A DNA stretch of 63,615 bases, the filler included, from Klebsormidium nitens (lineage: Eukaryota; Plantae; Klebsormidiophyceae): assembly GCA_000708835.1 (NCBI GenBank). It is 6 parts of 6 records of this genome, joined end to end, with 100 filler letters (N's around TTAATTAATTAA, not from the genome) between each part and the next. Parts side by side here need not be neighbours in the genome. Positions count along the whole stretch, not along the records: positions 53,293 to 56,724 come from DF238580.1; positions 56,825 to 59,125 come from DF238353.1; 4 more parts are not named here. One strand, 5' to 3'. A program made the translations under genes and the position numbers. Of this stretch, positions 39,601-63,615 are shown piece by piece (within the stretch, counting starts at the first letter, position 1; every line of letters starts with the position of its first letter). The notes below the pieces were generated by a model. It saw only the letters and a list, made by a program, of their open reading frames with translations, had not been told where the DNA came from and made no database searches.

Positions 39601-42600
39601 CTCCGGCGGAACTGGGCGGAATGGACCCCTCGCGGATCCACCTGCTGCTCCAGGCGCACGAGCGCCGACCCCGAGTGCCCGGTATGAATGGGGGGGTGCT
39701 GCGCAGCATGGAAATTGGCCCCCCCTGTGGCGAAGTGGCGGTCTGAGACGACACCCGGGTTCGGGATGACCGGCTTCGGGTTGCTGCGAAGGAGCGTGTT
39801 GATCAGGCTCGTAAGCTTCGAGGGAGTTGACGCGGCAACTGGCGCGGCAGCTCGTGGCGGCACCTTCCCGCGATGAACCACCATAGGCTGGGCACCAGAT
39901 CCCTCCGGTTGTTGCCACGTGGAGGAATGCGACGCTCCCCAGTGAGAGTGCACGGTGGCGGCCGGACTGGCGTAACCTGACCCGGGGGAGTGAACCGGGG
40001 GTTCCGCCCACCCGGTTTGCGAGGGGTGAACGGAATTCCAGTCGTTGCCAGGCCCCGCAGAATGCAAAAACTGGTGCCCTGGGGGTGTCGGTTGATGCTG
40101 GTGGTACCACTGAGGGGACCCCCCCGCTGGCGGCATTGCTGAGGGGGGGTAAAGGTCGCCTCGAGGAGGAACCCCTTGGTTGGGGTGCCAAAGGTGGGTC
40201 GCCTGAGAGGGATGCACTTGGCTGCGCACGGAGTTTGGAGCACCTGGGAAGGGAACGGCGTGGGGGGGATCCCTCGAATATAGACCGCCCGGTGAAGGAG
40301 GGGTCTGGCCCGGGGCATAGGGAGCCACGCCATGGTACTGGCCCACATAACTCGTAGCCCCCGGCGAGACTAAGTTGTCGGTAAACAGGGTCTGGCTTCC
40401 CGCGGCAACGAGGTGGGTGGGGGAGAAGTTCTGTTGCGCGGCCTCGTCGCGTGCGCGCCCCAAGAAAACATCGGCTGCGGGAACTGCCGGACCCGAATAA
40501 ACACTGTGGTACAAAGGACGGCCCTCCAACCCTGGGGCGGGGAACCCGCCGTTGCCCGGGGACTCTGCTCGCCAGAACTCCTCCCACTGATTTGGCAACA
40601 GGCGCGCCCCGTCACGCCCGACGCCGACGGCCGCCGGACCGGACAATTCCCCGTACATCTCCATGCTGCGAGGGTCCGGCACGGGAGTCGTGCGGACCAA
40701 ATCTCCGGGCAGGTAGACAGGAAGGGCGTCGATGCCTCCGAAACGACCGGGGGAGAGGTTATCGGGCTCGGGGAATTGCAAACCGCCGGAACCCCGTGAG
40801 GGAAACTCTCCTGAGCTGGCCGGTGCGCCATTCGCTGAGTCCCCATGGAGCAAATTGCTCGCCTCCGAGCCCGCGCCTGGACGGTTGGGCGACCCGCGCG
40901 CCGGCTGCGACCCCCATCCCTGACCTCCATTCTCGTCTCCGTCCAAATCAAGCCGCGTCCGCTCGCCGTCCATTGGGAGGCCGTCAAACGCCCCTTTCTC
41001 CAGGTCCGAGGACACGCTGCCCAGAAACTCGTCCAAATCGTCCAACTCCTTCAAGTCGGCCGGCTGCAGGCCCCCGGGATCGTCCCCGATAGCGACAGTC
41101 GAGTGCGTACCGGCACCGCCGTAAGCCGGGACGGCAACTAGAGAGGGCAGCCCGCCGCGCGCTGCTCGCCCGCTCGATTGTCGCGCCAAGTGCACCATTG
41201 CCCGCTTCCGACCGCCCGGTGTCCGCCCGTTCTTGCGCCCTGCCCCGCCGGACGGGGTCGCCTTCGCTCGCGGCACGCCCCTCGCACGCTTCGTCCCACT
41301 CCCCCCTTCTCGCCCCTCTTCGTCACGCGCCTCTTCCTCTCGCAACACCTCCCCCGCGGGCAGGACCTCGTCCTTCGACCCCTGTTCGGATTTCTTCTTC
41401 TTCTTCCAAAGCTCGTGCGGACCGTCCGGACCGACGGCCCTCCAGTCCCGGTTAGGGCCCGCTTTCTTGAGCCCCGCTTTCCCCCGGTCTCCGTACCCAG
41501 CGTCCCGGGCCCTTTTCGCCAGCGCCTCGAAGCAGCAGTTGAGCCCGGCCCACGTGCCCACGCTGCTGGCCAACGGGTGCCACGCCGCCGCGACGAGCGC
41601 GTCGCGGAGGTCTTTGATGTCCTGCCGCCCCCAGTGCGTCGCTTGGATGAAGTCGAAGATCGACTGGAGGACGTGGACCAGCTGGTCTAGCGTCATGCTC
41701 TGGGTGCGGCCAGCGTACGCATCGGCGGGTCCCGGGAAGTAGGCGGGGACCTGCAAGTGAGCAATGATGAGCTTTGGCTAATAGTAAACTAACATAAAAA
41801 TTCTCTAATAGTAAACTAACCAGCCTGTGACGGACCGTGGGGTTTGTTTGGGGGGTTTAGGGTGGGTAAGCGTGTGGAGCAGGTGGTACCGCGGGTTTTG
41901 AGTTCTTAGTGGCAGCGTAGGAGCTTGCTACTGCTAGAGCTTATTGCTGCTGATTTCAGGAGACACATAGTGGGGCGGGAGCTGCAATGACGTCAAGAGG
42001 ACCAGCGATTGGAGCAGAGGCTACGTCAGCCTGGCTGGGGCGAAACACCGTTGGAGATCCTCAAGCAGATCACTCCATTGACTCACCATTTGTCAGCAAG
42101 AGCAAAATCAGGAAGGGGGTCTTCTGAGAGGCCATGCTGACCCCTGCATACTGTAGCGTTGGCTTACCGTGGGGTTGAACACCAAAAATCGCAAACAAGA
42201 AACTACTTCTTCCTCGAATATTAAAAGCAGGAAAAGGCAAGTCAGAGGAACCAGTACGTGGAGGAAGTGTGCTTGAGTGGCAATGGGTCTCCTAGGTCTG
42301 ATAAAAGCCTGTCAAGAATAACTATTACAAGCAAGTCAGCTCATTCAAGGGGGATATCCTGCCAAATGGCGCCCCTTGCTTCACCCTTCTTTATTCTTTC
42401 CAGAGTCTTTTGATGGCAGGCCCAAGAGAAGCACGTACATCAGACTTGTTCACAACACAAATTGCAAAATCTGATAAAGAACATGGCAGGTGAGGTCCCC
42501 CTCACAAACAGCTAGAACTAGCTGTCCTTAAAAGGAAGCTTCATTTTGGGATTAGGACTTGGCAACCAAGGTATTTACGAAATTGCTGGGGAATTGGGCT

Positions 42601-45695: not shown

Positions 45696-48290
45696 TGCTC
45701 CGAAACGTGTCAGAACATCTCGGAAAGCTGCTGCGACGTGCTTGGCCTCCTTGGCCGGAATAGCACGGAGCTCAATCCATTTGGTGAAGTGCTCGACCAT
45801 GACGACGACGTAGCGGTTGCCGTCATCAGATATCTGTGGCATCTTGCAAAGATCCACGCCCCATCTGTAGAACATGCCCATGATAGGCAGGGGCTTCAGC
45901 TCAGGGTCCTTGACGTCGAACGTCGCCTTGACCCGATCGCACACGGTGCAGGCCGCGACCTCGCGCTGGACCTGACCATACATCCCAACCCACCAGTATG
46001 TGGGGCTCAGTAGCGAATACGTCTTCAGGACGCCGTAGTGGCCGACATCCTGGTGCACACGGCGAATCAGGTTCGCGCGCAGTTCTGGACGGGGGACAAT
46101 CTTTGTCGTGCCGTCTGCGAAGCGTTTTCTGAGGACGCCATCCTTCAGCTGATAGCTCCGGGCTCGGTGCCAGATGCGATCCTTCTGCTTCGGTGTCACG
46201 CTGTTTGCGTACACGCCAGCCTCGAGGTACGCCATCACGGGGGCGTCCTCCCAAATCTCGCGGTCGAACCTGACCGGCAAGTCCACATCATCGTCGGCGG
46301 CCTCACGCAGGGGCGCCACGATCGCAAGTGCCTGCGACTCTGCAGGGCTTCGTGCCTGTGTCTGTACAGGGCTTTCTTCTGGCGTGTCGGCCAGGCTTCC
46401 TCCGGGTGCCGGCATGTCGGCCGCACCGTAAATCAGCTCCGTCAGGGCTGGATCCTCTGGCTCGTTCAAGGTGCCGGCCAAGATGGCAAGGCAAGCCGAG
46501 ACGGCCGACGGCAGCTCAGAACTCACGTGGTCCATCCTCGCGTCCGTCCAATCATCGGTTTCGGGGAGCGGGTTCCGCGAGAGACCGTCCGCATCCAAGT
46601 TCTTCACTCCACTGCGGTGCACGATTTTGACATCGTACTCCTGCAGGATGTTCGCCCAACGGGCGTGCATGCCCGTGAGCCTCGTGTTCGTCATCAGCCA
46701 CTGCAACGGCTCGTGGTCTGTGATCAGTGTGAACGGCCTCCCGTAGAGGTACACGCGGAAGTAGCACACACCCCAGACGGCAGCTAAGCACTCTCCGTGG
46801 TAGCTGGAGTAGTTTCGCTCCGTGCGGTTGTTGCTCCGTGACGCGTATGCGATCACGTATTCCTTCATCTCATCGTCACGCTGTGCGAGAACAGCGCCGA
46901 GCCCAGTAGCGCTCCAGTCGGTGTGCAGCTCAAAGGGTCGGGTAAAGTCAGGCCGCCTCAAGATGGGCGCCTCAGTCAGCTTGAGCTTCAGTTGCTCGAG
47001 AGCCTCCTGTTCCTCAGTGTTCCACTGCCAGGCAACGCCGTTCTGAAGCAGTCGGTTCAGGGAAAAGGCGATGCGGGCGTAGTTCTGGACGTATCTCCGG
47101 TAGTAATTCGTCGTGCCTAGAAAGGCGCGCAACTCCGAGGTGTCCCTCGGCGGAATCATCCGCACGATGGCCTCTACCTTCACGTCCTGCGGGGCGGTTC
47201 CGCCAGGCACGATGTAGTGGCCCAGGTAAGACACGGTGCGAACGGCCAACCTCATCTTCTTCGGGTGGCACTTGATCCGCTTCGCGCGCAGCCGCTCGAA
47301 CACGGCGCGCAGATGTGTCAGGTGCTCCTCGAACGACTTGCTGTGAATGATCACGTCGTCGATGTAACAGCGGCAGAACGCGCGCTGCGCACTCAGTGTG
47401 GTGTCCATCAGCCTCTGAAAGAAGGCAGGGGCGTTTTTCAGCCCAAACGGCATGACAACCCACTCGTACAGGCCGTCGTGGCCCCAGAACGCCGTCTTGC
47501 AGACGTCCTCTTCTGCGATGGCCACCTGGTGGTAGCCCCAACGCAGGTCAAGCGTGGTAAACCAGGTCGAGGTCTCCAGCTCATCAAAGATTTCCTCAGG
47601 GGTCGGCAGCTGGTAGTGATCAGGGGTGCTGACCTTGTTCAGCGCGCGATAGTCCCCGCATGGTCGCTTCAACGTCCAATTGCCGTGCTCGTCTTTCTTC
47701 GGCGGCATGGTTGTAGGCGAGGCCCATGGAGACGTGGAGCGTCGGATAAAGCCGCACTTCAGGCGCTCTTCGACCTGCTCCTTCAAAGTATCTACCTCGG
47801 CGTAGGCTAGCCGGTACTGCCGTTTGAAGATCGGCGTATCATCCGTCACGGGAATTGTGAACTTCTCCCCAATGACCGTGGACATCTCGGACATGTCAAA
47901 TGCTTGCACGTCACGAAACTCGTCCAGCAAGTCCTCCAGAGCCTGTTTTTGCTCAGGCGTAAGATCATCTCGCCCCCCCAAGCCCCAATCTGTCTTCTCA
48001 TCATCCTCATCGTCCGCGGACATCAAGTCCGGGAGATCGGGCGGGTCCGGTTCTGGTTCCTTCTCTGGTGTGCCAACCTGGCCTCTCCCCCCCCCAGCCG
48101 CGGCCGGCGGTCGTCCCGACGCTGTGCCAGGCGGCTGTGTCTGAGGCAGGGGTCCAACTCTCCGAAATTTGCGCTGCTGGAGTAAACCAGCTCGCACGAA
48201 TGCTGCCGCGTGATGCGGCGCCACCAAAGTGGGCTCACCCGATGCATCGGAGGCCATCAGGCCCGACCACCCGCTGGTGGTAGGCCGCAT
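45696..48290 (-). CDS. Gypsy pol: reverse transcriptase, RNase H, integrase (truncated by gap)
   Basis: RPCGDYRALN, FTTLDLRWGYHQV, YEWVVMPFGLKNAP, CRCYIDDVII, LHTDWSATGLGAVL, TDHEPL, ADGLSR, HQDVGHYG..CTVC and RWGVDL. Confidence 0.95.
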
Positions 48291-48296
48291 GAATTG

Positions 48297-50838
48297 TCAA
48301 TCCGAGAAGAACGCGAACTGGAAGCACTTAATGCTGCTGACCAGGAAGGTCAAGGCATGCATGTCCATCGTGCTACCCAGCAAGCGCCGGCGGTCCGCCT
48401 CTGAGACGGCGGGACCAACCTGTGTGCTGTTCTCCAGAAAACCCATAGCGCGCTCGCGCTCTAGGGCCGTCGGTTCCTCCTGGGCGCCGTTGGCGGCCCA
48501 GATCATGCTGTGCTCACCGACGCGGTACGCGTGGGAGCCTCTCATCGTAACGAAAGTGGACAAAGCCCGGAGCGGCTGTCCTGTCTGGTTCACGCGGTGA
48601 CGGCCCGGCGCACCAGAGTGGCGGGCGGCCTGTGCGGTCCGGCCAGGCTCAAGAATGTCCTGGACGCGGCGGAAGTCGGGGCGCTGCTTGAAGCGCTTTT
48701 CGACCATCTCTAACATCAGTGGGCTGGGGATCATGTTGGTCCACCAGCGCCGGTTGCGGTGGGCGAGAGAGCCCGCGGCAACTGCGTCGAACGCGAATCC
48801 TGGGCCTAGAATGCCCTTGACGACGTCGTTGAACTCGTCGCGCACGTCCGCCTGCGGATGATCGCTGGCGTCGACGTTCTCGAACAGGTAGGCGCACGGT
48901 CCGTGGACACTGGTCACAGTGTGCACGACGCGGATGGCCTCCGTAAATAGCTTCGTGCGCGGGTCGCGCAAACCCTTGGGGTTGCTGCCCGCCTTCGAGA
49001 AACCCTGGCATGGGAATCCCGCCACGATCAAGTCGGGTCTCTCTAGATGCTCGATATGGGCGCGCGTCACATCCTGAATGTTATCAGGCAGGGCGCCGTG
49101 GACGTTCAAAAACGCCTCTGTGCTCAGCAGCTCGGGGAACATCTCGTGAAGTTTCCCGAGGCGAAATTCGGCCACCTTCTGTGCCGATTTATCTAGCTCG
49201 CAAGCGTAGACCTTCCGAACCTTCAGGCCACTGCGCACTAGCGCCTCTGTGGTGGCCATCAGGCCGCTGAATAGCTCAATAACTACCAGGCCCGGCCCAG
49301 AAACGTCCAAGACGGCCCGTCGGTCGATCAGACTCTGGTCCAGGGGTCGCAGGCACTGGAACGCGGGGTTCCTGATAGGCCGCGGCGGAGCAGCCGGCAT
49401 CGCAAGCGCGCGCACGCTGCGGTCGAAGATATCTGTCGTGGCTGTCATTAGCTCAGTATTGTACTGATCCAGCCGGCGTCGAGCGGTCTGCGCTTCCAGA
49501 TGCGAGATAGGTGTCTTGATGTGCAACGGCATAACTGCTGCAACGTATCCGCGGATTCCTGCCGCGTAGGCATGCAGCGGCGAGCGACCGTACTCAATCG
49601 GGAATGTACACCGAAGGTACGCACTCCGCTCACTGGCTGTATCCGGGTTCACATAGTACTTCACCCGCTGCTTGCGGGGGTTCGGAATGATGCTAGCCGG
49701 CCCCATGACGCTCATCCCGATCAGGGTGTCAGGTAGCTCGTGGGTGGCAATCACAACGTGCGCCATCACGGTGACGGCGTCTGGTGTCCCCGGGTTCAGC
49801 TCGAAGCTGACCGGCTCAGATGTACGGTCGAGACGGTCGGACAGCTGTCCCGTCGCGCCGCGGATCACCACCGCTCTGCGGCGAATCATGTCAGGGGTAA
49901 TCCCCATTGCCTTGGCACCGGAGGGGCCAGTGATGACGGCCTCCGCACCAGAATCCAGAATCATGTTTGACACCGTGCGCCCATTCACCAGAAGGGCCGG
50001 CTGCGGTCCAGAGTTGTCAATCCGCGGGGAACGGTGGAACCCGGCGGTCGGATCACTGTGGTACGCCCCTGGGAGCTTCCCTAGGAGCGCGCCGATACGG
50101 GGGTTATCCGCATCATAGATGTCGTCTGCAGCCGGCTCGTTGGGCGGATCCAAGGCGGCAGGCGCCTGGTCGGCCTCGGTCAGAGCGGGCGCAGTGTCCA
50201 CTGGGGCAGTCGGCCCGTAAATGACTCCCTGCCGGCGTGGATCGTCCGGCGGAAGTTCCTCAAAGCCCTGGGGCAGAAGCCGAGTCCTGGCTGTCCCCGT
50301 GGCTGCGCTCTTAGCAACATCTCCTGTAATCTCCTTCTCCTTTCCCTTAGCCTGCGCGGTTTCCTCCGGCGCGGCTGTCTGTAAGAGATCCGGCCCAGCG
50401 CTCTGCTCAACCTCGGATGGCTCGGCAGGCTCGGGCATAGGCGGACTAGATGTCCTGATGAAGTCCTTGGGCAAAAAGCCCAGCGGCATGTCGGCAAGGC
50501 GACCACGAAGCCGTTCGTTCTTAGGGGCCTGTCGTGTAAGGCCCGTGTGCACCTTGGGGGCCGCCTCGCGTGGGGCGGCAACCCGGCTACTGCTAATCTG
50601 CTGGTTAGTGGTTCGCGTGGCGGCATGCGCGGACACTATGCACGCGCCGTATCCGGCGACGCGTCCATAGTGGGCGTCCCAAAGCTCCTGAAGCTCTTCC
50701 ATGGTTGGTGCGCCAGGGTCCCGCGGCTCGGTCTTCGGAGCGGCCGGGGCCTGCGCAGCGCGCGCGTTCGTTACGGGCGGCGCTGATGGCGCTGATGACG
50801 CCCCATTCTGTAGGGCCTTGCACTCGGCCGTGTCATGT
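48297..50838 (-). CDS. Gypsy aspartic protease followed by C5 cytosine DNA methyltransferase domain (~49290-48297)
   Basis: Protease MILDSGAEAVI near 49955. DNMT motifs in canonical order: IELFSG (I), ACELD (II), NIQDV (III), AGFPCQGFS (IV, catalytic Cys), LFENV (VI), HRNRRWWTN (VIII), ERERAMGF (IX) and LLGSTMD (X). Confidence 0.92.
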
Positions 50839-51431
50839 GNNNNNNNNNNNNNNNNNNNNNNNNNNNNNNNNNNNNNNNNNNNNNNNNNNNNNNNNNNNNN
50901 NNNNNNNNNNNNNNNNNNNNNNNNNNNNNNNNNNNNNNNNNNNNNNNNNNNNNNNNNNNNNNNNNNNNNNNNNNNNNNNNNNNNNNNNNNNNNNNNNNNN
51001 NNNNNNNNNNNNNNNNNNNNNNNNNNNNNNNNNNNNNNNNNNNNNNNNNNNNNNNNNNNNNNNNNNNNNNNNNNNNNNNNNNNNNNNNNNNNNNNNNNNN
51101 NNNNNNNNNNNNNNNNNNNNNNNNNNNNNNNNNNNNNNNNNNNNNNNNNNNNNNNNNNNNNNNNNNNNNNNNNNNNNNNNNNNNNNNNNNNNNNNNNNNN
51201 NNNNNNNNNNNNNNNNNNNNNNNNNNNNNNNNNNNNNNNNNNNNNNNNNNNNNNNNNNNNNNNNNNNNNNNNNNNNNNNNNNNNNNNNNNNNNNNNNNNN
51301 NNNNNNNNNNNNNNNNNNNNNNNNNNNNNNNNNNNNNNNNNNNNNNNNNNNNNNNNNNNNNNNNNNNNNNNNNNNNNNNNNNNNNNNNNNNNNNNNNNNN
51401 NNNNNNNNNNNNNNNNNNNNNNNNNNNNNNN

Positions 51432-52639
51432 TGGGCACATTGAGCGGCATAGTGGCCCGGCTCTCCGCACTCGTAACATACCTTCTCGTTCTTTCCTGAG
51501 CCGCCGCGCTGCGGCGCTGCGGCCGCGTTGGCCTGAACCATGGGCGCTATATGGCCCTTCTGCGGTGGCGACCGGCAGTTCCTGGCGATATGACCTGTCT
51601 TGCCGCAATTGTGGCATACGCGGTTGTCTACGGGCCTGTCGACGGCCGTCGACCTAGCGGGTGCACCACGTGCTGCATCATGGGTGCTCGGCTGCGACGC
51701 TGAGCTCCAGAGCGCTTCGGTGCATCGCTTCTTCTCAAGGCGGATTGCCACTCGGCTGATCTGATCGACTGATAAGTCATCGTCGCCTGTATCCTCGGCC
51801 CAAACGACCCGTCGAACCTCTGCGCGGAACGGCTTCGGCTCGATCGCATCTAGCAGCTTCTGGGCGGCCATGCCCTCGGGCCTCTGTAGGACCGTCATGA
51901 GCGTCTTCATCCTCTGCGTGAGGCTCGACATGCTCTCATTCGGCTGCATCTTGAAGGTGTTGAATTCGTTGATCCGGGCAGTGGACTTCTCTGGAAAGAG
52001 GTCCTTGATCATGGCCCAGAACTGCTCGACTGGGCTATCGTATACCAGGAGGGCCTTCGGCCGCTCTGGTTTGACCGGCTCGGGCAGGGCCGCGCTCTCG
52101 GTCGCTTCCATCGCATCATATCGCTCATGCTCCCGTTCATATTCGGCGAGCTCGCGCTCGTATGCACGACGGCGCGCTTCATTCCGCTTATCGAGATCGT
52201 CGGCCATGCGAGTCTCTAGCTCGCCGGCGCGATCGCGAGCCTGACCGGCGGTCAGCTCGACGAGGAAGTAGAAGTAGTCATTCTCATCCAAATTCTCTAG
52301 ATTATTGCGCAGCTTAAGCTTTGACATCATCGTTTTATAGCTTTGTCGCAGATGTGATACGCTCATCCCGTCTGGTCCGCCGGTAAAGCGGCCAGCGCCA
52401 TGCGGCACATGTGTGCTATCCATGATGTCGTCGGTTTCCACAACCCAACTCACAGGATTTTCGTTATTGCGCAATACACTCAAATGCGACGGCGACGCAA
52501 CAGTGGAGCTCTCAACAATATAATCACTGCCCGTGGCCACAATATATGCCTGGGACGAACTCCCGGCGTCACTCTCAACGGTACTCTCAACTCTATCCAC
52601 CTGCCGATGAGGTAGGTTTCTAAAGTTGTACCTGTGCAT
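51432..52639 (-). CDS. Gypsy gag with CCHC zinc knuckles
   Basis: CHNCGKTGHIARNC and CYECGEPGHYAAQC. HDTAEC after the gap suggests a third knuckle. The capsid-like region includes EFNTFKMQPNESMSSL. Confidence 0.88.
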
Positions 52640-52705
52640 CCGCCTAGCTACTCCTAGCGCCCCAAGCGCTTAAGCTAGCTAGCAGTCGCGGCACACTACT
52701 CTCAC

Positions 52706-52920
52706 TCCCCCCTGCCGCGACCTCCGTTCTGGTCACGGTTACGGCGCTCTCCGTCGTCGTTGCGGTCACGCCCGCGGCCACGGCCACGGCCACGTCCACG
52801 CCACCCGCCTCCACGTCCGCGCTGGTACTCCTCGCGATCGTCCCAACGGCGGTCTCTGCGGCGGTCGTCTCTGTCACGACGGTCGTCCCTGTCGCGGCGC
52901 TCGTCCTGGCGGCCGTCACC
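52706..52920 (-). other. Putative RD/RG-rich exon upstream of gag
   Basis: GDGRQDERRDRDDRRDRDDRRRDRRWDDREEYQRGRGGGWRGRGRGRGRGRDR.. is preceded by ctgat..tttcccctctgtgtggatccag and followed by gtgaga. A 74-nt GT-AG intron (52705-52632) would join it in frame to gag. Confidence 0.5.
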
Positions 52921-53293
52921 TGGATCCACACAGAGGGGAAACGGATCAGTCTTACTGGCGAACTCACTTCAAAAAGGGTTCAGCGCACAGACTCTCACGG
53001 GCGGACTCACTTTGCAGAGGTCCAGCACCAAGAATGTAACCAAGGGTTTCGGCTAACCCCAAACCTAACGGGCGCACAATTCCAAAAAGGACGTGCTGCA
53101 CACTCGGGCGAACTCCCTTCGAAAAGGTTTCTGCCTCAGGACCGCGAACTCCCTTAGGGCAAAGGTTTCAGCGGGTCCTAGTAGTCGTTGTCNNNNNNNN
53201 NNNNNNNNNNNNNNNNNNNNNNNNNNNNNNNNNNNNTTAATTAATTAANNNNNNNNNNNNNNNNNNNNNNNNNNNNNNNNNNNNNNNNNNNNG

Positions 53294-55969
53294 GCAGAAG
53301 CAACAGGTTCGAGGACCTACGGGTTTCATCAAAATCAGGCCTTCAGTAAAGCAGTCATCCCCTGAGCCTACGCTTGCTTTCAAAAAGTATCCAAGGTGCC
53401 ATCACCAATTCAACTGCTATACCGTTTCAAGCGGCCTTAACTTAAGCTCTTCTCCAATCAAGATGCTCACCTCCGGGTGGGGGCCGCATATGCTGCAGCA
53501 CTCCAGGATCTGCCGCCCCACCAGCCGGAAGAAATCGAGGCTGGCCTTCCGCCACGTCTCCTCTGAGAGGACGGCGCACTCTGGTGCCCTCCGAAAGGCC
53601 TCCTGCTGTCCCTCCAGCAGGGCCCCGAACCCCGACTGGCCCCGCTGCATCTGCTTGAGCAGCAGCTGGAGGCTCTCCTGTACAACAATCGTCTGACGGC
53701 TCCAAGCGTACAGCCCCAAGTGCTCCCCGTCGAAGTGGATGGTGTGCTTCCTCGCGCATTTGCAGGAGTAGATCCTGGTGCGCACTGCTTGGCTCCAGGT
53801 CGAGGCATGCACCACCGCGTCCTGCCAGAGCTCCATCCACTTCCCACCGCACGGAGGCGGTTCGAGAGGACACGGCGCGCTCAGCATCCCGAGCTCTCCC
53901 AGCTCCTGAAAGTCCCTTCCTACCAGCTTGCTCACTCGGATCGGTCCGCATCTGAGCCGAGTCACCCACGGATCGTGAAAGTCCGGGGCGTCGCTCAGCT
54001 GGCTCAGCTTCGGCTGCGTCACCTGGACGGCCTGCGTCTCCTGAAGCATAACCGGGGCCCTCCCCTTGCCCCCATGCTGGCATCCCCGTTGGGCACCCTC
54101 CAGCGTGCAGCTGCCACAGGAGGAGACCCAGCATCGGATTGCTTCCTTGCCTAGCGCCTCCGCGGGCGGCTCCTGAACACTCTTGGGTGCCATCGCCCGG
54201 GGAGCCCCGCCCGCATGACTCCTATACCACTGCTTGCTCCTGCGCGCCCCCCTCCATGGCTCGCTCACGCCCGGCCCCTGGGTTTGTGATGATGCGGACG
54301 GCTCAGCTACTCCAAACAATTGCTGGTGCTCTTGACAGAAGCAGTCCGCACCAGCGCATCCGGCCGGCTCGTGGCGCTGTCCTGATATGAGGCCCATCAG
54401 GTGCGCCTCCGCCTCGCCGGCCCCTTCGGAGTCCACACGCGACTCGCTCCCCCCCGCCCTCCTGCCGATCAATGGCAGCGCTCCGTCCCATTGCTCCAAC
54501 CACTGCCTCGCTGTACTTAGGGCATCCTGCCTAAGAAGCAACCCCTGTGCAAAATGGACCTGCCCCGCTCGGACGGCCAGGTTCGCAGCGATGACGTGGC
54601 TGCAGTCGTGCTGCGACGGACAGCCGTCCCTCTTCCCCTGGCAGTACCAGGCGCCCTCGACGCTCCGATGCAGCATCTTGTGAGCCGGGCTGACCCCCTT
54701 AGGGCTGCTCCTCACGGCAAAGAAGCGCCCCGTAGAGTCCGTACCCACCTGCTCGACCAGCCCCGCTCCCCGTCCCAACTGTCTGGCAGTGGGGAGGCCC
54801 CCTTGCTGCAACCCCGGAGCGCCGAGGGTCGCGAGCACCAGCTTGTGAACGCAAGCAGCGTCCTTGGCTAGCCTGCTGCGATTGCACGAGCAGTTCGAGG
54901 ATCCCTGGCTATCCCACCAGCACTCCTCCAGCAACGCCTTCTCCTTGGTGGGCTTGCCGAGAGCTTTCGGCCTCGCTCGATTGTGATCCCAATGCGTCAT
55001 GTAGAGCCGCAGGGGGCTGGCCTCACACTCGTCCACTCCAGCAGGAACAACTATGCGGCACGTGCCCTCCAGGACGCCGCTCAGGAAGAGGCCAGCTTGG
55101 GCCGGGATGCCGAGGCGCTCCTCAGGCTGCAGGTGCCAACTAGATCTTTCAGGCAAACTTCCTGACCGCTCTCGGAAAACAACCTCACGCCTTGCTCACA
55201 GTCGGAGCTGAACGAGCAGCTCAGAATCGCATCCGGGATTTTGCGCATTATCCCGCCTTTCAAGTGGCGGGCCATGAGAAATTCCATGAACAGCATGTAG
55301 TCGGTCCGTGTGCTCCCCCTCTTAGCGTGGGCACAGGCAAGACAGTGTGTCCATTGAAATCTCAGGGGACGGGCGCAATCGCTTGCAGACGCTCGTTGCA
55401 TTGCAAATCATCATAGGTTCTATCAAGAAATTATCTGCACTCACCAGCATCTCGCGCGCGCGGCTGCCGGCTTGCATGCCCCTGTTCAATGCGCTCTCAG
55501 CTGCCGCCTTTTTCGGCTTCTTCCTGCTCACGGTGCTCTCGTTTGAGATCACAACCCCCTCCAGCAGCTCGTTCGTCAGCTCCAGCGTTTGCTTCCAGCT
55601 CCCCGAGGCCTGGCGCTCGAACAACAGCGCATCTTGCTCGCGCAGGCTCACGCTCTGAGCATCGGCGCTGACCTTCAATTCCCCCATCAGCTTGCCCACG
55701 CATCCTAGGCAAAGGATCTGCCTCCTCTGCTTGTTCTTGGGCACGCCGCAGCTGACCAAGTAGCCCTTCATCGCACACCTGCGGAAGCTCAGCCTCAAGC
55801 TCCCATCCGTACCGCCTGTGCCCTTCCAAACCTGCTGCCTGCAAGTGATGCACCTGCCAGAAATCTGCCCTATCTCCGCCGGTCGGACGCTCTCCTCGCC
55901 TATGTAGTAAAGGCCGCGTCCGATCTGAGCTAGATCCGAAGCCTGATACTGCTCGGTAGGGGCTGCCAT
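53294..55969 (-). mobile_element. KDZ (Kyakuja-Dileera-Zisupton)-type DNA transposase, N-terminal part with Zn fingers and CxC cluster; catalytic part missing or degenerate
   Basis: ATG at 55969. SWIM-like NCSCNRSRLAKDAACVH and YCQGKRDGCPSQHDCSH. CxC4-like YSCKCARKHTIHFDGEHLGLY..QESL..WRKASLDFFRL..CCSICGPHPEV. An out-of-frame IGDGT remnant with stops lies near 53410. Confidence 0.72.
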
Positions 55970-56831
55970 GCTCGAAAACCCCCCTACATGCATCAGCATG
56001 CACGAAGGCTGCCCCTTGTGAACCAACTGGGAGCTCGACTGACACTGCCTACCTCCGACCATCTTTGCTCATCCTTCCGGCCTCTCTCTCTCCCTAAGTA
56101 TGTCTTGCCTCTAGACTGGACTGCTGCCCGGGACGCGGAAGGCTCGAAATTCGATGATAACCGCTTCGAAGAGCTCCGGCGGGCCGCCGAGTTCGCTGCA
56201 GGGGGGCTGCTGGCAAATTCCTCTTCGGTACCGTTATCAGTCAGGTGACGCTAAGCCAAAACTCGAGTTTTCAGGACCGTCCGATCGATCGCGAGAACTT
56301 AGGGATTGGTAGGACGCATTCCGGCCGTCCGATAAGGCCGACCTTCATTTGGTTGCCCCACTTGCCCTAAAGTTCGCCAGCGACAACTTCGGCAGATCTA
56401 GCCGATCGAGTCGCGGCGCCGCCTTCGCCAAGTTCTGCAATGACACTACTACTTCTTTCTAGGGAGAGTACCAATCCAGGCCCAAATAATCCAGGCCCGA
56501 GTTTCAAGGCCGAATCCAGGCCGTTGATACTTCGTCCTGTCCGACACTCCGACACCCTTTCTAAACTGTTTTGCGGCTCAGCCCGTACCGGTGCCTACGG
56601 TAGCCATGTACCCCAGCCTAGCCAACCCCGCGGGGGTCTGTCCCACCTGGAAGATATGTACCGGGCCCGCGCGGCCGGAGCCGCGAACCNGACGCTACCA
56701 TTTTGGTTGTGCTTAAAGTGGGCGNNNNNNNNNNNNNNNNNNNNNNNNNNNNNNNNNNNNNNNNNNNNTTAATTAATTAANNNNNNNNNNNNNNNNNNNN
56801 NNNNNNNNNNNNNNNNNNNNNNNNCACCCGC

Positions 56832-57230
56832 ATGGACATAGCCTCCAGGGTCAAGAAGATGAAGGAGGTGGTGGACGGCTTCGACAAGTTCTCCTCGGAA
56901 CGTCTCAAGGGCCTGGAGGAGAGGGACAAGAAGAGGAAAGACAAGGAGACCGCCACGAAGAGCAAGACCAAGAGCAAGCCCCACGCCGCCAAGCGGAGCC
57001 CGCGGGCGAAGCACGGCACATCTCCTGCCCCGGAGCCCCCCGGGACCCCTCCGGCCCGTCCGCAAGCACCCGTGCTCGTGCCGCAGATCGCCCCCACGCC
57101 GATCCATCATCAGCAGGCCAGAGCACCGCCCCGACCGTCTCAGCTCATCCTGTCCCGAGACCTGGCCCCTCCTCCCCAGCAACAATCCCCCGGAACCGCC
57201 AGCAAGATCGTGTCGTTCCTCCCCGCATGA
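56832..57230 (+). CDS. Hypothetical basic, P/Q-rich 132-aa protein (virus-like contig)
   Basis: Intronless ORF with strong G/C-ending codon bias, 77 bp upstream of the primase on the same strand. Confidence 0.6.
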   Translation: MDIASRVKKMKEVVDGFDKFSSERLKGLEERDKKRKDKETATKSKTKSKPHAAKRSPRAKHGTSPAPEPPGTPPARPQAPVLVPQIAPTPIHHQQARAPPRPSQLILSRDLAPPPQQQSPGTASKIVSFLPA

Positions 57231-57307
57231 GGGGCAGGGGCTTAAGGAAGCGCGCGGGGGAGGGAGGGGACCATCTTTAAAATCTCCCCATCCAAGGAGG
57301 GTTCGAG

Positions 57308-59125
57308 ATGGAGGCCGAAGCAAGGAGGGCGCGCGACTTCGAGGGGCTCTACCATCTCGGGCTGGTGCCCGTCTCCGTGAACATCACGAGCGAGGCGCAG
57401 GGCGAGAAGACGGCCAAGTTCGTGACTTCCTGGCGCGACCTGGACCGAGACAACTGCCTCAGATTCTTCTCGCCGGAATGCAACTCGATCGCCGTCCGGA
57501 CCGGCGCCATCTCCGGGATCCTCGTGGTGGACTTCGACAACACGTCGGAACGGGGCACCGAGAATGCCGAGGGGAGCAAGGCGAACGGGATGGAGGCGCT
57601 CGAGACCTGGTCGCTGCGGCACGGCCAGGACCTGAACACATGGACCGCCAAGACGGGCAAAGACGGCGTCCACCTCTACTATCGGTACCCCGGGGCGAGC
57701 TGCTCGTACGGCCTCGGCAACAGGGCCGGGCTCTCCATCGACGGGCGCGACTTCGCGGTGGACATCAGGGGCGACGGAGGGGTCATCTTCGCACCCGGCT
57801 CATCGTACCAGTCCTGCGACGGTCGCACGCTCACGTACGAATGGACCAAACACCCGCGGGACACGCCCATCCTGGACGTGCCCGCGTGGCTCGAGGAGGT
57901 CCTCGTGGAGAACGACAGGGCGGGGTGCGCGCAGGGGCGCCAGAGAGGGCCTCGAGGCGCCCCGCCCAGGGGCACGTCGACCCCCAGCCGGCTACCGGGG
58001 GCGCCCAACGCCCCCTTCAGGCTGTATCGCATGCAAGATGTACCCTTCTGTGCCGGCCAACAGGTGTCCGGGACTCGAGCCTTCGGCCCGGTCCTAGACG
58101 AGACGGACGCCGCCACAGAGGGCCTGGACGAGGCGGCCATAGACCGGCTCATCAATGCGTCCGACTACGAGGACCCGCACGCCAAGCGCAGCAGGGCGCA
58201 AGATCGCGTCCGTTTCAGGCAGACGATCGGCGAGCTGGAGGAGATGCTCGCCAACCACCCGAGCCACCCGGACACCACGTCCGTCTTCGACGCCGTGTAC
58301 CGCGGCAACATCTTCACGTTCCGAGTCAAGGGCCCCCGCGTGTGCACGTACGGCGTCCGGCACTCCGGCTCCAACAACTTCTCCATCAAGATCATCGAGC
58401 GCAACTGTTTCGTCTACTGCCACGGCACCATCTGCTCCGGACTCTCCAAGCAGCACCTAGGGCGCCTCTCCATCGGGGCCTACCTCGAACGCTCCCCGAA
58501 CAACCCCGTCTCCATCCACGACAGCTCCGTCGTCGACGTGCTGCAGACGGCCGAACATCTGCTGAAGAACTACGTGCACACGGAGAGCGCTAAGGCCGCC
58601 GCCCACATCTACGCCGCCGCGGTCAGGGGCGGGCGCATCGTGGTGGACCCAGACGACCAATTCTGGCTCTGGGCCGGCACCCTCTACAGGCAGATGGGCC
58701 TCAGCGACGTCAAGTACCTCGCCTCCGAGCAGCTCGAGTTCGTCCTCCGCGCCTACAACGAACGGGTCCGCCACGAGTGCCGCATCGCCGCGGCCGAAGG
58801 GGGCGAGGCTCCCGACGAGGAAGCTCCTCCGAGCAAGCGCAGGGCCACCGGCCCACCCGAGAAGAAGGCCAAGGGGCTCGCCGACCTCCGCAAGTGCGGC
58901 AACTCGAGCTTCATGGACAACACCCTCAAGTTCCTCAGGCCCATCCTCAAGCAGGTGGACTTCCTGGAGTCCCTGGACCAGACGCCCGACCTGCTGCCCT
59001 GCAAGAACGGCATCGTGGACCTCCGCACGGGAGAGCTCCGCCCCCACCACCCCCGCTACCTCAACACCAAGCTGGTCGACGTCCCCTACAAGCAGAACCC
59101 GACGAGCACCACCTGGCGCGACTTC
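57308..59125 (+). CDS. Viral-type primase-helicase: bifunctional Prim-Pol + UL52-like Zn finger + D5_N (C-terminus in gap)
   Basis: NSIAVRTGAISGILVVDFD, TAKTGKDGVHLYY and DIRGDGGVIFAPGS (Prim-Pol). CTYGVRHSGSNN..VYCHGTIC (Zn finger). QFWLWAGTLY and LDQTPDLLPCKNGIVDLRTGELRPHHP (D5_N). Intronless over 1.8 kb. Confidence 0.88.
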
Positions 59126-59225
59126 NNNNNNNNNNNNNNNNNNNNNNNNNNNNNNNNNNNNNNNNNNNNTTAATTAATTAANNNNNNNNNNNNNNNNNNN
59201 NNNNNNNNNNNNNNNNNNNNNNNNN

Positions 59226-59335
59226 CGGATACCTCAATTACACTACGACTCCCTACCATGAATTTCAACACTCCATATGTATTGTGTGAACTTGATCATT
59301 CAATCATTCATTCCAAACACAACGTGTTTCAAAAG
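59226..59335. repeat. Fragment of the copia-family LTR in opposite orientation
   Basis: 59267-59301 is the exact reverse complement of 60610-60644 (gaatgatcaagttcacacaatacatatggagtgtt), with weaker similarity out to ~59335. Confidence 0.8.
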
Positions 59336-60575
59336 TCCGTTTTGGAGATCATCTTGCCGGCGCAACGGTATGGCTGATGGCCGTTGATAGTCCGGACCAG
59401 TCAGAGATATTGAAGCTGGATCTGACCTCATTGCTTGAGTTGATCTGCTGCAAAAGATGCCCGCATACTAGCGGATGCTTGGCCGGCTGCGTGTACACCT
59501 GAAATTGAAAGCGAAACCGTTGCAAAAGCTGCATGCAAATCTTCAAGCCATAGTTGAACTTGATCTAATGTGGTCGGATTTTGAAATGGACATCAAAGAG
59601 GGGCGGCAATCTCAGTAAGGGTTGAAAGAGACCTTTTCGACTACAATAGGCGGAGCATGCATGTTATCAATACACAGATGAAACAGATTTGAGTGTACGT
59701 TCGATTGTCAACATTCGCTTCCGTCCCTTTTTCTCATGATGTCGCGATCCCGATCGCACTCCAAGGATCCGTCTTTTATCCCGCTCAGATTCCACGGGCC
59801 CGTCTTCGATGATATTTCTTTGTTGGCACCATGCTTAGTTGTGCCATCGTTATCACCTTAAGTTCTTAAGCCGCTTGATGCCCAGCTATGCTACCATCAA
59901 AACTAACATGACCTTCAGTGTCATTAGGTGATCGTGGTTGGCTTTTGCAAGCTTCCAAAATTCTCCTTTTTTTAGAAATGTGTGCGTCATTCGTTCTGTG
60001 TCCTCAACTACACAACGACCCCCTTCCATGTCTTTCAACAGTGTTGAGACGCAATTTTCGATAAATGAGGTGAACAGACACGTGTAAGACGGTGGGCGCA
60101 AGGGCGTGAAGATGTTGGCGCGAGCATTTGATGATGGGTTTGAAAGTGTGAATATCGTAAGTGAAGCGCCAAAAGGCTAAGAAGCCCGTGAAGAAGCCGA
60201 AGTGTCGAGATTCTCTACTAGAATGAGGCGTGAGCCCGCAAAGTGGTACCAGGCAGTGGTGGGAGCTATGTACAGCGGAAGCCGTGGGAGCCAAAGAGCC
60301 GGAGCACGGAGTGGAAAAGACGTTGCCGGAAAAGGGCTTTGCATTGTGCTATCAAGAAAGCGAGGGTAACGAAAGTGGAAGCGCGTGGGGACGCCAAAAT
60401 AAAAAGAAGGCGGCACGCAAGGAGAACAAGAAGACATGTCACAAAACTAGAGTTGAACTCGTTTAAATAGGAGAGTTAGAATATGGTGATTATGGCCAGC
60501 CGAATTATTGTGATCCAACAAGGTCCCATCCGAGTTAGGGTTTGGACTAGTGAACGCCGACGTGCTTACACGGCA

Positions 60576-60949
60576 TGTTGAAATTCGGCGTTGTTGAGAA
60601 TGAATTATCGAATGATCAAGTTCACACAATACATATGGAGTGTTCGGAGTCTTAGGCGGCGCTACCCTAGAGTCACACTACCTAGAGTCACACTCCTAGT
60701 CTAGGTCTAACACTGATAGCCTAGTAGGCTCAGTTGACCGCATATAAGCAAGTCCGGAAATCTCGCGCAAATCTGAATATCTACGGCTGTTGTCGAACCT
60801 ACTCATTACGGCGGTACTCATTAAGTCATTCGGGTGTAACGCTGTAACCCGCGCGCATTTAACCGCCAACCGCTAACTACCGGTTATCGTCGAACTCCCG
60901 TCGACGTCATCCAGGAAATCGCGCACCACTAAATGCCCGAGTCTCAACA
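60576..60949 (-). repeat. Copia 3' LTR (374 bp)
   Basis: Bounded by TGTTGA...TCAACA and immediately follows the purine-rich tract gtgtgtggggag (60961-60950, minus strand) just downstream of the RNase H stop. Confidence 0.85.
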
Positions 60950-63521
60950 CTCCCCACACACTAATGACTTATGCAATCCCTATCTCGCTCTTGCACCTCT
61001 TGAACGTCCCCGGTGCCAGCGCCTTGGTCATGATGTCCGCCTTCATGTCCTCCGTCCCGCAGTACGCGAACGCGACCACCTTGCGTGCCACACGCTCTCG
61101 TGCAAAGTGATGAATCACGTCAATTTGTGCTTCGATCGCTGTGAAGCGATTGGGTACTTGAGAAGCCGTATTGCCCCTTGGTTGTCGCACAAGATACGGA
61201 CCGTCCCTAGGTCCAACTCAAGATCTCCCCCGAGCTTGCGGAACCACAGCGCCTCCTTCACCGCTTGCGCTGCGCTCATATACTCCGCCTCCACTGTCGA
61301 GGCCGCCACCGTTGGCTGCTGCCTACTCGACCAGCTCACCCGCCCCCCGTTTGTGGACCGCTTTGTGTCCACGTTACCCGCATAATCCGCGTCGCCATAA
61401 GCGATGAGAGTCTCTCTGTTCCCCCCAAAGGTTACCCCGTCCTCTGCCGTACCCGCTAGGTAGCGCACAACTCCAAGCGCCGCCCGCCACTTGCTCCTCC
61501 CTCGGCCCCGCCATAAAGCGCGCAAGCGAGCCAACTGCTTGTGCAATGTCCGGCCGAGTGCACACACTCAAGTACAACAAGCTCCCCACGCACTCATTGT
61601 AGGGAAACCCGCTTTGTGTCGAGGGGTTCACGTTCTTTGGTTGATTTGTCCCCCGTTCCGAGAGGGACCGAGCGCGCCCGAGCGCTCGCTAGCCCGTACC
61701 GTCCGACAAGCTCCCCCGTCAGCTTCTTATGGATTAGCTTCAGGGTGCGCGCCTCCCATCGCGCGTCAGCTCCATGCCGAGGAAGTATTTCGCCTCCCCC
61801 TGGTCGCGCACGTCGAACTTCTCCCCCAAATGCGCCTTTACTTTGGCAATGCGGTCCGCTCCCCGAGCCGCCACTAGGATGTCGTCCACCCACACCACTA
61901 GGTAGACCCGCTCCCCGGCTACTACTTCCGTGAAGAGCGCCGCGTCCGCCTCACAAACTCAAAGTTCTTGAGCTCCTCCTTCAGGCGCATGTGCCATGCA
62001 CGCGGCGCCTGGCGCAACCCGTATAAGGTGCGCTTGAGGTGGCAAACCATGTTGGGCCCACCTTGCTCGTATCCCCGCGGCTGCTGCATGTAGATCTCCT
62101 CCTCCAGCTCCCCATTGAGGAACGCCGTCTTGACATCTAGCTGGTGCAGCTCCAAGTCGCGCTCCGCGACCACCACCAATAGCGCACGCAAAGTCGTGTG
62201 CTTGCTCACTGGGGCGTAGACTTCCTCAAAGTCAATTCCCTGCTTTTGCAGGTACCCTTTCGCCACTAGTCGGGACTTGTTCCGCTCCACATTTCCGAGA
62301 GCGTCCCGCTTTATGGGAACCGGCTTCACCCCTTCCGGTTTTTTGACAAGCTCCCAGGTCCCGTTTTTCCAACAAAGACCGCATCTCCTCGTCCATTGAC
62401 TTCCCCCATAGTTCACTCTCTTCTCCCCCTACGGCTTCCTGATAAGTCTGCGGTTCTGGGTGCTCCCCCGTCCCTTTGAGGTGCTCCCCCGCTTTCAGTT
62501 CCGCCGCTAAGGTAGCGCGGTACCACTCCCCCGGTGCGCGTCTCTCATGCGCAAAGTACCTCTGGGCAGCCGGTGTTTGCATCCCGATATCCTCCTCAAT
62601 CTCTTCCGGCTCTGCCCGAGTCTCGCGCACAGTTTCAAACTTGCCCTCATTTCGGCCCGTCTGCGAAAGCGCGCGCGGCGGCCGCGGGTCGTCGGGCGCG
62701 CGCGCGGCCGCGTCGCCCTCGCGCAGAGATTCAACTTTTGGCCCCTCATGGGCCTCCGTGTGAACCTGTGCGCCGTGACCTTCCGCCGTCTGGGAACCTT
62801 CCATGGGGTCGGAGCCAAGCTCGAAAACCCCATCCCCGCTGATCCCCTCGTCAAAGATGACGTCCCGGGAGATGATCAACTTCCCGTCACGATCCCGGAG
62901 CAACCTATACGCCTTCGAGTCCGGCTCGTACCCCACGAACACACATCGCTCGCTCACCGGATCTAGCTTACGCCTTCGCAGCTTAGGGACGTGGCGGAAC
63001 GCTCGGGCCCCAAAACCCTCATATGCCCGACATTCGGTTTTTCACAGACGAAAACTTCCGAGGGAGTCCTCCCGTGGGCGCTCACGGGCGTCCGGTTCCG
63101 GGTGTAGTTGGCCGTCACCACGGCTTCCGCCCACAATTCTCTGGCCAACCCCGAGTCCTCAAGCATTGCCCGGGTCTTCTCCTCCAAATCCCGGTTAAGC
63201 CGCTCCGCCGACCCATCCTGCTCGGCGCTATAGGGGGCGGTTTTCTCGTGTACCGTCCCCTTGCCCCCGAAAACGTTTTCAACGGCCTTGTTGACGTACT
63301 CCTTGCTCCGGTCCGTCCGTACCGACTTGAGCTTCTTCTCCGATTGCAGCTCCAACCAGTTCACCACACGCTCAGTGACCTTGGCCACCTCGCTCTTCTG
63401 CTTCATGGGGACTACAAACGAGAGCTTGCTGTAGTCCAAGAACGTGGCAAAGTACCGGCTTTCCCCTACCGAGGCTACTGGCATTGGCCCGCAGACGTCC
63501 ATGTGGACTAGCTCGAGGGGC
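60576..63521 (-). mobile_element. Degenerate Ty1/copia LTR retrotransposon (IN-RT-RH-PPT-3' LTR)
   Basis: Integrase PLELVHMDVCGPM..VRTDRSKEY..PYSAEQDGSAERLNR. CVFVGYEPDSKAYRL and EPQTYQEAV. RT KSRLVAKGYLQKQGIDFEEVYAPV, LHQLDVKTAFLNG, LYGLRQAPRAW and VWVDDIL. RNase H GDADYAG..CDNQGAI..ADIMTKAL. Split over several frames. Confidence 0.93.
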
Positions 63522-63615
63522 TGTTGAAACACAGCGTTGTTGGAAGTGATATTCAATCAATCAAGTTCACACAATGTATATGGAGTGTTCCGAGTCACGG
63601 CGTATCTTTAGGTCT
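63522..63615 (-). repeat. Related copia LTR end inserted at the start of the integrase core; runs off the window
   Basis: On the plus strand tgttgaaacacagcgttgttgg..atcaagttcacacaatgtatatggagtgttccgagtc aligns to the LTR end at 60576. On the minus strand it abuts the PLELVH codons. Confidence 0.8.

What the first reader, a model, noticed from the sequence alone, without database searches (positions are those of the whole stretch)
56824..59125. Endogenous DNA-virus-like segment encoding a Prim-Pol/Zn-finger/D5 primase-helicase
Seen: two tightly spaced, intronless, visibly more GC-rich ORFs in an otherwise intron-rich genome. Established: D5-like primase-helicases are replication genes of NCLDVs, Polinton-like viruses, virophages and some phage or plasmid elements. 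A Prim-Pol domain plus a C-x5-H-x2-SNN..CH-x3-C finger plus D5_N points to such an origin. Inference: this is a piece of an integrated virus or self-replicating element infecting a streptophyte alga, a host group with few characterised large DNA viruses.
Basis: partly seen in the sequence, partly recalled or inferred. Interest (0 to 1): 0.7.

Follow-up and report, generated by a model that had tools for sequence, protein, structure and literature searches.

The report
Virus-type primase-helicase gene in alga
A 2.3-kb piece of an algal genome holds the front two-thirds of a virus-type DNA-replication gene present in several related copies, likely from a small integrated DNA virus; viral inserts are already reported in this algal genus, but the enzyme pairs a plasmid-type primase with a giant-virus-like zinc finger.

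Summary
A 2,301-bp contig between two artificial linkers carries a low-complexity ORF and a 606-codon ORF with Prim-Pol, a Cys/His finger and D5_N. It is cut off by the contig end before the helicase ATPase, which full-length relatives of 921-950 aa have. The source sample holds about 2-3 collapsed copies plus a variant; 26 of 36 changed codons are synonymous, and GC3 is 0.91 against 0.62-0.66 in host exons. Relatives at 43-97% identity include a Klebsormidium nitens protein. No close prokaryotic relative was found. The finger folds like the zinc domain of giant-virus primases. The helicase falls in an unnamed 44-member clade that shares this finger, lies nearest giant-virus D5 helicases and is apart from sampled phages. 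No capsid, ATPase, integrase or element end could be tested, and the neighbouring KDZ transposon is a separate element. Best reading: replication gene of an integrated Polinton-like virus (about 0.5). Rivals: giant-virus insert (0.22), capsid-less replicon (0.2). Both virus kinds are already reported in K. nitens, so the novelty is the enzyme clade rather than the insertion.

The parts
56825..59125 (.). Whole contig: collapsed repeat of about 2-3 near-identical copies of the element's replication region
   Evidence: Gaps on both sides. Summed contig depth mostly 18-27 in X1 against 5.5-8.7 for the variant copy. Assembly pieces start 65 nt before the left edge in 4 of 4 runs, and two different continuations leave the right edge in X1.
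56826..57230 (+). ORF1, 5'-truncated, Lys-rich then Pro-rich, no known domain
   Evidence: no family hit; 49% identical to aa 46-179 of P0011
57308..59125 (+). ORF2, 606 codons, 3'-truncated primase-helicase (Prim-Pol, zinc domain, D5_N); SF3 ATPase and winged helix lie beyond the gap by homology
57440..57889 (+). Prim-Pol (pRN1-type primase-polymerase) domain with the expected motif residues D75-x-D77, H122, D152
   Evidence: Pfam; motifs; the model of relative P0003 matches pRN1 ORF904, 3m1m Z 13.7, rmsd 3.2, 174 aligned
58193..58477 (+). Zinc-binding domain, finger motif at 58343-58435, resembling the zinc domain of giant-virus and herpesvirus primases
   Evidence: Three Cys invariant in 19 of 19 aligned proteins; pLDDT 85-96; Foldseek hits to giant-virus primases, rmsd 1.9-2.5 over 83-86 columns
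58628..59125 (+). D5_N domain, N-terminal part of the SF3 helicase module
56725..56824 (.). Artificial scaffold spacer of unknown true size (left)
59126..59225 (.). Artificial scaffold spacer of unknown true size (right)
56462..56598 (+). Terminus of a separate multi-copy repeat pointing toward ORF1; candidate left end of the element, link unproven
   Evidence: Differing loose flanks before 56462 in 3 listed runs; depth 60-96 falling to about 8 after 56598 in X1-X3

Best explanation
The contig holds the front two-thirds of a primase-helicase gene present in several related copies in the alga's DNA, and it is likely the single replication gene of a small integrated DNA virus of the Polinton-like kind. 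Predicted mechanism, inferred from domain homology: the C-terminal winged helix binds the element's origin; the SF3 domain forms a hexamer and unwinds the DNA; the Prim-Pol domain starts primers without help and may extend them; and the giant-virus-type zinc domain stands where many relatives have a PriCT domain, likely assisting priming. Shown: domains, motif residues, copy number above one, mostly synonymous divergence and foreign codon use. Inferred: enzyme activity, integration, and membership of a capsid-bearing element.
For: Architecture: Prim-Pol + D5_N + SF3 in full-length relatives of 921-950 aa with intact Walker A, Walker B, motif C and Arg finger. The model of P0003 matches vaccinia D5 (Z 27.1), SaPI5 primase-helicase (26.1), ASFV C962R (25.8), pRN1 prim-pol (13.7) and an RFX-like winged helix (8.2). 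Copies: a window type at depth about 18 and a second variant at about 6 in the same sample. Of 36 changed codons 26 are synonymous against 24% expected, p 1.5e-9; this uses 39 of the 133 listed differences. Differences are 51% C<>G (37 of 72) against 19% (126 of 673) in the neighbouring transposon, with fewer C>T/G>A changes (19% against 37%), as expected if the variants diverged under selection rather than by decay. Origin: GC3 0.91. The helicase clade lies next to giant-virus D5 loci L001-L004 and apart from 14 phage-like rows, SH-aLRT 99 in an unrooted tree. The finger matches giant-virus primase zinc domains. Class: K. nitens carries 7 Polinton-like capsid genes, four of them 71-86% identical to the reference copy (PMC10120064 Tables S1, S4, S5), a spread like that of the close primase variants (80-97%). 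Such elements often use a primase-helicase and assemble as separate short-read contigs, swap replication genes readily, and place the primase-helicase beside the terminal repeat.
Against: No capsid, packaging ATPase, integrase or terminal repeat is linked to it; the whole genome was not held. No member of the clade was recovered from IMG/VR: 7 scans found no relative, and 0 of 80 loci from the eighth carry the finger. The nearest labelled relatives are giant viruses, not Polinton-like viruses. In the passages seen, Tetraselmis Polinton-like viruses use TVpol-S3H, pDNAP or S1H, not Prim-Pol. Only about 3-4 copies were seen against 7 capsid loci, though the read lay only sees DNA at least 85% alike. 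Runs X1-X4 are one sample and may be the source of the window.
Confidence: 0.5

Rival explanations
1. The gene is the D5 primase-helicase of the giant-virus-like inserts already known in K. nitens, missed earlier because its best hits look phage-like.
For: The published table lists DNA polymerase, capsid, ATPase and VLTF3 for this species with the D5 column blank, and describes 5-6 copies of each at 40-92% DNA-polymerase similarity (PMC5294986). Phycodnavirus D5 is reported to be displaced by a phage-type homologue (PMC3493329). The nearest labelled helicases are on giant-virus contigs, and the finger is giant-virus-like. Inserts of 66% GC or more occur in Tetraselmis.
Against: The four nearest giant-virus proteins have PriCT-2 (4 of 4), no Prim-Pol hit and no finger. 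Only 1 of the 17 members listed in the six close clusters is a public K. nitens protein, fewer than five inserts would suggest. Near-identical collapsed copies suit a small mobile element better.
Confidence: 0.22
2. It belongs to a capsid-less self-replicating element (a transposon- or plasmid-like replicon) of algae that took its helicase and zinc domain from giant viruses.
For: A 44-member clade at the 50% level with no recovered member in IMG/VR or GTDB scans, although several members lie on 14-128-kb contigs. A Prim-Pol-D5 'selfish element' is noted in Ostreococcus (PMC2579912). It sits among transposons, with a multi-copy terminus pointing toward ORF1.
Against: No transposase or recombinase is linked. 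Capsid-bearing elements of suitable copy number exist in the genus.
Confidence: 0.2
3. The primase-helicase is cargo of the adjacent KDZ-type DNA transposon, or is a domesticated host gene with one intron.
For: Divergent arrangement next to a SWIM/CxC4 gene. The public model P0011 joins ORF1 and ORF2.
Against: The KDZ element ends at 56359-56360 and has depth 30-200 against about 18. None of 34 KDZ homologues shares a contig length with the 14 lengths of primase homologues (compared by eye, a weak test). GC3 of 0.91 and multiple variants argue against a host gene.
Confidence: 0.05
4. A phage or bacterial contaminant contig placed in the scaffold by error.
For: Artificial linkers on both sides, high GC, and phage families as best PHROG and atlas hits.
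Against: No close relative in GTDB. Phage and plasmid hits are partial at 28-41%. The tree places it outside the phage rows. A paralogue lies on an 89-kb K. nitens record, and depth is a small multiple of nearby single-copy-like DNA.
Confidence: 0.03

Closest known systems
Polinton-like virus and virophage primase-SF3 helicase fusions (AEP-S3H, TVpol-S3H; YSLV5 primase-helicase)
   Same: One-protein replication module, low-copy integration in algae, swappable primase domain; YSLV5 among the structural hits, rank 19
   Different: Here the primase is pRN1-type Prim-Pol followed by a UL52-like finger; no capsid module shown
Nucleocytoviricota D5-like primase-helicases (vaccinia D5, ASFV C962R, Bodo saltans virus A0A2H4UVF4, giant-virus contigs L001-L004)
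   Same: D5_N-SF3-winged-helix module; nearest labelled helicases; zinc domain like that of giant-virus primases
   Different: About 30% identity or less; L001-L004 carry PriCT-2 and lack both the Prim-Pol hit and the finger
pRN1 ORF904, SaPI5 and P4-family phage or plasmid primase-helicases
   Same: Prim-Pol fold and motifs; TIGR01613 above cut-off in P0003
   Different: The finger was not found in 143 of 148 proteins outside the clade; the helicase branches apart from sampled phages
Ostreococcus lucimarinus Prim-Pol-D5 selfish element (PMC2579912)
   Same: Prim-Pol fused to a D5-like helicase in a green-algal nuclear genome (one passage seen)
   Different: Sequence not compared here; whether it has the finger is unknown
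Mriyaviruses (10.1101/2024.02.29.582850)
   Same: Small Nucleocytoviricota relatives with SF3 helicases of phage or plasmid affinity
   Different: Their SF3-linked primase is mostly inactivated or replaced and an HUH nuclease is universal; here the primase motifs are intact and no HUH gene was seen

Membership tests
D5-like primase-helicase | N-terminal AEP-superfamily primase with DxD, His and third Asp motifs | tested here: met
   Prim-Pol E 9e-16; D75, D77, H122, D152
D5-like primase-helicase | D5_N domain | tested here: met
   E 2e-18
D5-like primase-helicase | SF3 ATPase (Walker A, Walker B, motif C, Arg finger) and C-terminal winged helix | tested here: inconclusive
   Beyond the contig end in the window; present in relatives at 84-88% identity
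Polinton-like virus | Double-jelly-roll major capsid protein, minor capsid protein and A32-like ATPase in cis | not testable with these tools
   No genome held and no locus of the clade retrieved; capsid genes exist elsewhere in K. nitens
Polinton-like virus | Integrase (tyrosine recombinase or rve) and terminal inverted repeats, 15-30 kb | tested here: inconclusive
   None in the contig; a candidate terminus at 56462 lies across an artificial gap
Polinton-like virus | Replication gene of a type used by the group (pPolB or primase-helicase) | tested here: met
   Primase-SF3 fusion; not specific to the group
Giant endogenous viral element (Nucleocytoviricota) | Cluster of core genes (PolB, MCP, A32, VLTF3) around the gene | not testable with these tools
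   Only 2.3 kb is contiguous; the flanking contigs are transposons
Giant endogenous viral element (Nucleocytoviricota) | D5 nested within a giant-virus D5 clade | tested here: inconclusive
   Adjacent to, not inside, the group holding L001-L004; unrooted, few labelled references
Mriyaviricetes | HUH endonuclease, VLTF2/VLTF3 and NCLDV-like capsid in cis | not testable with these tools
   Not in the window (features)
Phage or plasmid P4-family replicon | Helicase nested among phage or plasmid homologues | tested here: not met
   Separated from 14 phage-like rows at SH-aLRT 99; 4 of the 10 loci among them have terminase, portal or head genes
KDZ transposon cargo | Gene lies between the transposon's ends and shares its copy number | tested here: not met
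   The KDZ end is at 56359-56360, before the gene, and its depth is several times higher

The most novel reading that the evidence does not exclude
A widespread, undescribed family of capsid-less self-replicating DNA elements in algae. They replicate with one chimeric enzyme (plasmid-type Prim-Pol, herpes/giant-virus-type zinc finger, giant-virus-related D5 helicase) and exchange primase domains with giant viruses: a primase-based counterpart of Polintons that virus databases miss.
Probability: 0.2. Interest if true: 0.75.

Novelty: new variant of a known kind. Interest (0 to 1): 0.42.

Why it matters
If it is a Polinton-like virus gene, it gives the replication enzyme for endogenous viruses of a streptophyte alga close to land plants, so far listed by capsid gene. 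If it belongs to the giant-virus inserts, it fills their missing D5. In either case it marks a clade of at least 44 sequence clusters that shares a UL52-like zinc finger and carries two different primase types, a clean case of domain swapping between plasmid-type and giant-virus-type primases that can be tested biochemically. The insertion itself is not surprising for this genus.

Tried and rejected
Context could not be obtained. No whole genome is held. Scans for related loci found no relative in viral contigs with P0003, A1, P0008, P0006, P0115, P0114 and P0215, in metagenome contigs or in GTDB contigs; these scans need close matches. KDZ-primase fusion was rejected. The first helicase tree did not resolve a sister group (support 60). 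Pfam and PDB sequence searches did not recognise the finger. The atlas hit to a Herpes_UL52 cluster scored only 0.79, and the PDB fold matches to HSV UL52 (Z 4.7) and mpox E5 (Z 4.2) are tied with unrelated folds. The finger region was poorly modelled in the full-length fold (pLDDT under 50). Expression: no RNA holder listed. An organellar origin was considered: a D5_N ORF occurs in the Staurastrum plastid, but I rejected it on the 66% GC. No paper names GAQ87940, KFL_003890110 or kfl00389. Searches listed no description of this clade; only the open-access library was searched, and bioRxiv supplements and figures were not seen. Earlier-findings look-ups by place and by sequence were empty.

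Full report
Observation. Window 56825-59125 is a single 2,301-bp contig between two identical 100-base spacers (N44-TTAATTAATTAA-N44) that occur five times in the window. I read these as artificial joins of unknown size, because the core gives stop codons in all frames (inference). The contig carries ORF1 (56826-57230, open at the left edge) and ORF2 (57308-59125, open at the right edge). ORF2 has Prim-Pol at aa 45-194 and D5_N at aa 441-606, both above Pfam cut-offs, and ORF1 has no family hit. GC is 0.664 against 0.534 for the first 21.6 kb. ORF2 GC3 is 0.91, against 0.62-0.66 in two host exons and 0.64-0.77 in four transposon ORFs.

The whole protein. A word search gave 6 clusters among 7,992 scored candidates, at 44-98% identity. 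They hold 17 listed members (15 in the six clusters plus repeats of role are not counted twice by the tool), one of them named: GAQ87940.1 of Klebsormidium nitens, on an 89,163-bp record. I take the host to be a Klebsormidium from this and from the 15 of 34 homologues of the neighbouring ORF that are named K. nitens. Full-length members are 921-950 aa and carry Walker A, Walker B, motif C and the Arg finger; the window copy ends about 40 residues before Walker A. A model of P0003 (mean pLDDT 75) matches pRN1 prim-pol at the N-terminus (Z 13.7, rmsd 3.2, 174 aligned), vaccinia D5, SaPI5 and ASFV C962R in the helicase (Z 25.8-27.1), and an RFX-like winged helix at the end (Z 8.2).

Copies. Laying four runs of one sample, which may be the window's source, shows the window type at summed depth mostly 18-27 in X1 and a second variant at 5.5-8.7. 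A loose end of the variant translates to residues found in P0011. Assembly pieces begin 65 nt before the left edge in 4 of 4 runs, and two different continuations leave the right edge in X1, so the truncation is likely an assembly break at a repeat, not a broken gene. DNA at 56599-56689 has depth about 8 in X1 and X3, 5 in X4 and 0 in X2. This suggests 2-3 copies of the window type, with the tool's caveat that depth is not a copy number. Among 39 of the 133 listed differences, 26 of 36 changed codons are synonymous against 24% expected (p 1.5e-9). C<>G changes make up 37 of 72 differences here against 126 of 673 in the adjacent transposon (p 5e-9), and C>T/G>A 14 of 72 against 246 of 673. I infer that the variants diverged under selection in a high-GC replicon rather than by decay in the host.

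Surroundings. The left contig holds a SWIM/CxC4 (KDZ-type) transposon gene on the minus strand. It is a separate, higher-copy element: depth 30-200 and an end at 56359-56360 with differing flanks. A second multi-copy terminus starts at 56462 and points toward ORF1. It could be the element's left end, as in the end modules described for Polinton-like viruses (PMC11296320, passages), but the spacer lies between them. Further left is a Gypsy element with a DNA methyltransferase, like KnitGypsy-Dnmt3 (PMC5890265, passages). To the right is a Copia-like element (by eye). No other viral gene was recognised in the window; only the six ORFs were scanned against Pfam.

The wider family. A profile search of 1.84 billion representatives returned 150 best hits. 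In a FastTree of 156 of 161 helicase segments, the Klebsormidium-type proteins lie in a 44-row group (support 92), joined to a 21-row group of AT-rich proteins (support 98) and apart from a 71-row group. A finger profile hits 36 of the 44; 7 of the 8 misses are fragments under 520 aa. It hits 5 of 148 proteins outside, 3 of them fragments dropped from the tree. The profiles were built from group members, so the first count is partly circular. Within the group the N-terminus is Prim-Pol in most scanned members, but three scanned members lack it and show a different AEP-like motif by eye. An IMG/VR scan gave 80 loci, none with the finger. Four of them (three giant-virus MAG contigs and a 394-kb contig, with DUF5832, ERCC4 or BTB neighbours) fall in the AT-rich group and have PriCT-2. 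A mixture-model tree of 35 chosen rows recovers the finger group (87), the giant-virus group (92) and the phage-like group (99) as three sides. It is unrooted, so it shows 'not nested in the sampled phages', not a donor. Four of the ten phage-side loci have terminase, portal or head genes.

The finger. Modelled alone with 20 sequences it reaches pLDDT 85-96 over its first 90 residues. Its Foldseek hits are mostly giant-virus primases: Moumouvirus (E 1e-3, rmsd 2.1 over 83), Pithovirus sibericum (rmsd 1.9 over 83), cedratvirus and ASFV F1055L, with only 2 hits at E 0.001 or below. HSV UL52 is the top but tied PDB match (Z 4.7), and an atlas cluster with Herpes_UL52 is a lead at 0.79 with 176 of 256 shared features. 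Together these support, without proving, a UL52/giant-virus-type zinc domain. Its likeness to the human PrimPol finger is recalled, not tested.

Mechanism. By homology the protein is a one-piece replication initiator: origin binding by the winged helix, unwinding by an SF3 hexamer, primer synthesis and perhaps extension by Prim-Pol, with the finger in the place that PriCT holds in many relatives. All activities are inferred.

What is known. PMC5294986 (passages and section 3.3) reports 5-6 copies each of giant-virus DNA polymerase, ATPase, capsid and VLTF3 in this species, with the D5 column blank; its supplement held almost no text. PMC10120064 (passages and supplement rows) lists 7 capsid genes of a PgVV-group cluster in K. 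nitens. PMC3493329 (passages) reports phage-type displacement of D5 in phycodnaviruses. PMC2579912 (passages) mentions a Prim-Pol-D5 selfish element in Ostreococcus. PMC4642659, PMC9356565, PMC12220804, 10.64898/2026.06.19.733378 and 10.1101/2024.02.29.582850 were seen as passages. PMC4083422, PMC11244446, PMC4877394 and 10.1101/2022.07.28.501842 were seen as passages and added little. None of the passages seen describes this clade.

Verdict. A real, likely integrated, virus-type replication gene. That it belongs to a mobile virus-type or self-replicating element is about 0.9 likely. The class is open: Polinton-like 0.5, giant-virus insert 0.22, capsid-less replicon 0.2. Novelty: new variant of a known kind. 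Interest 0.42.

Noticed in passing
window 45696-53192 (-): Gypsy retrotransposon with gag zinc knuckles, aspartyl protease, a C5 DNA methyltransferase (E 5e-16) and a separate pol frame; resembles the published KnitGypsy-Dnmt3.
   Followed up: partly
window 53293-56359 (-): High-copy KDZ-type DNA transposon (SWIM/CxC4 gene, apparently with introns) with a sharp end at 56359-56360; 34 homologues, many named K. nitens.
   Followed up: partly
window 56462-56598 (+): Terminus of another multi-copy element with short internal repeats and differing upstream flanks; family unknown.
   Followed up: partly
window 59226-63615: Degenerate Copia-like element on the minus strand; a 53-nt inverted pair (59267-59319 and 60592-60644, 92%) and a direct pair (60576-60651 and 63522-63596, 81%).
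   Followed up: no
window 27641-31873 (+) and 38973-41777 (-): Two long GC-rich single-frame ORFs that share an N-terminal block (74.6% over 338 nt) in opposite orientation, followed by low-complexity and repeated sequence.
   Followed up: no
protein P0139: A 1,132-aa member of the finger clade with RNA-polymerase Rpb2- and Rpb1-like pieces fused in front of Prim-Pol, finger and D5.
   Followed up: partly
proteins P0141, P0150, P0154, P0157, P0163: Clade members whose N-terminus differs from Prim-Pol and looks like a giant-virus-type AEP by eye; three were scanned and lack the Prim-Pol hit.
   Followed up: partly
proteins P0123, P0127, P0262: Clade members with an extra N-terminal domain of about 100 aa; weak BRCT hit in P0127 (E 0.16).
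   Followed up: no
proteins P0007 and P0113: Both have a longest contig of 13,547 bp and cover complementary halves, so probably one split gene copy.
   Followed up: no
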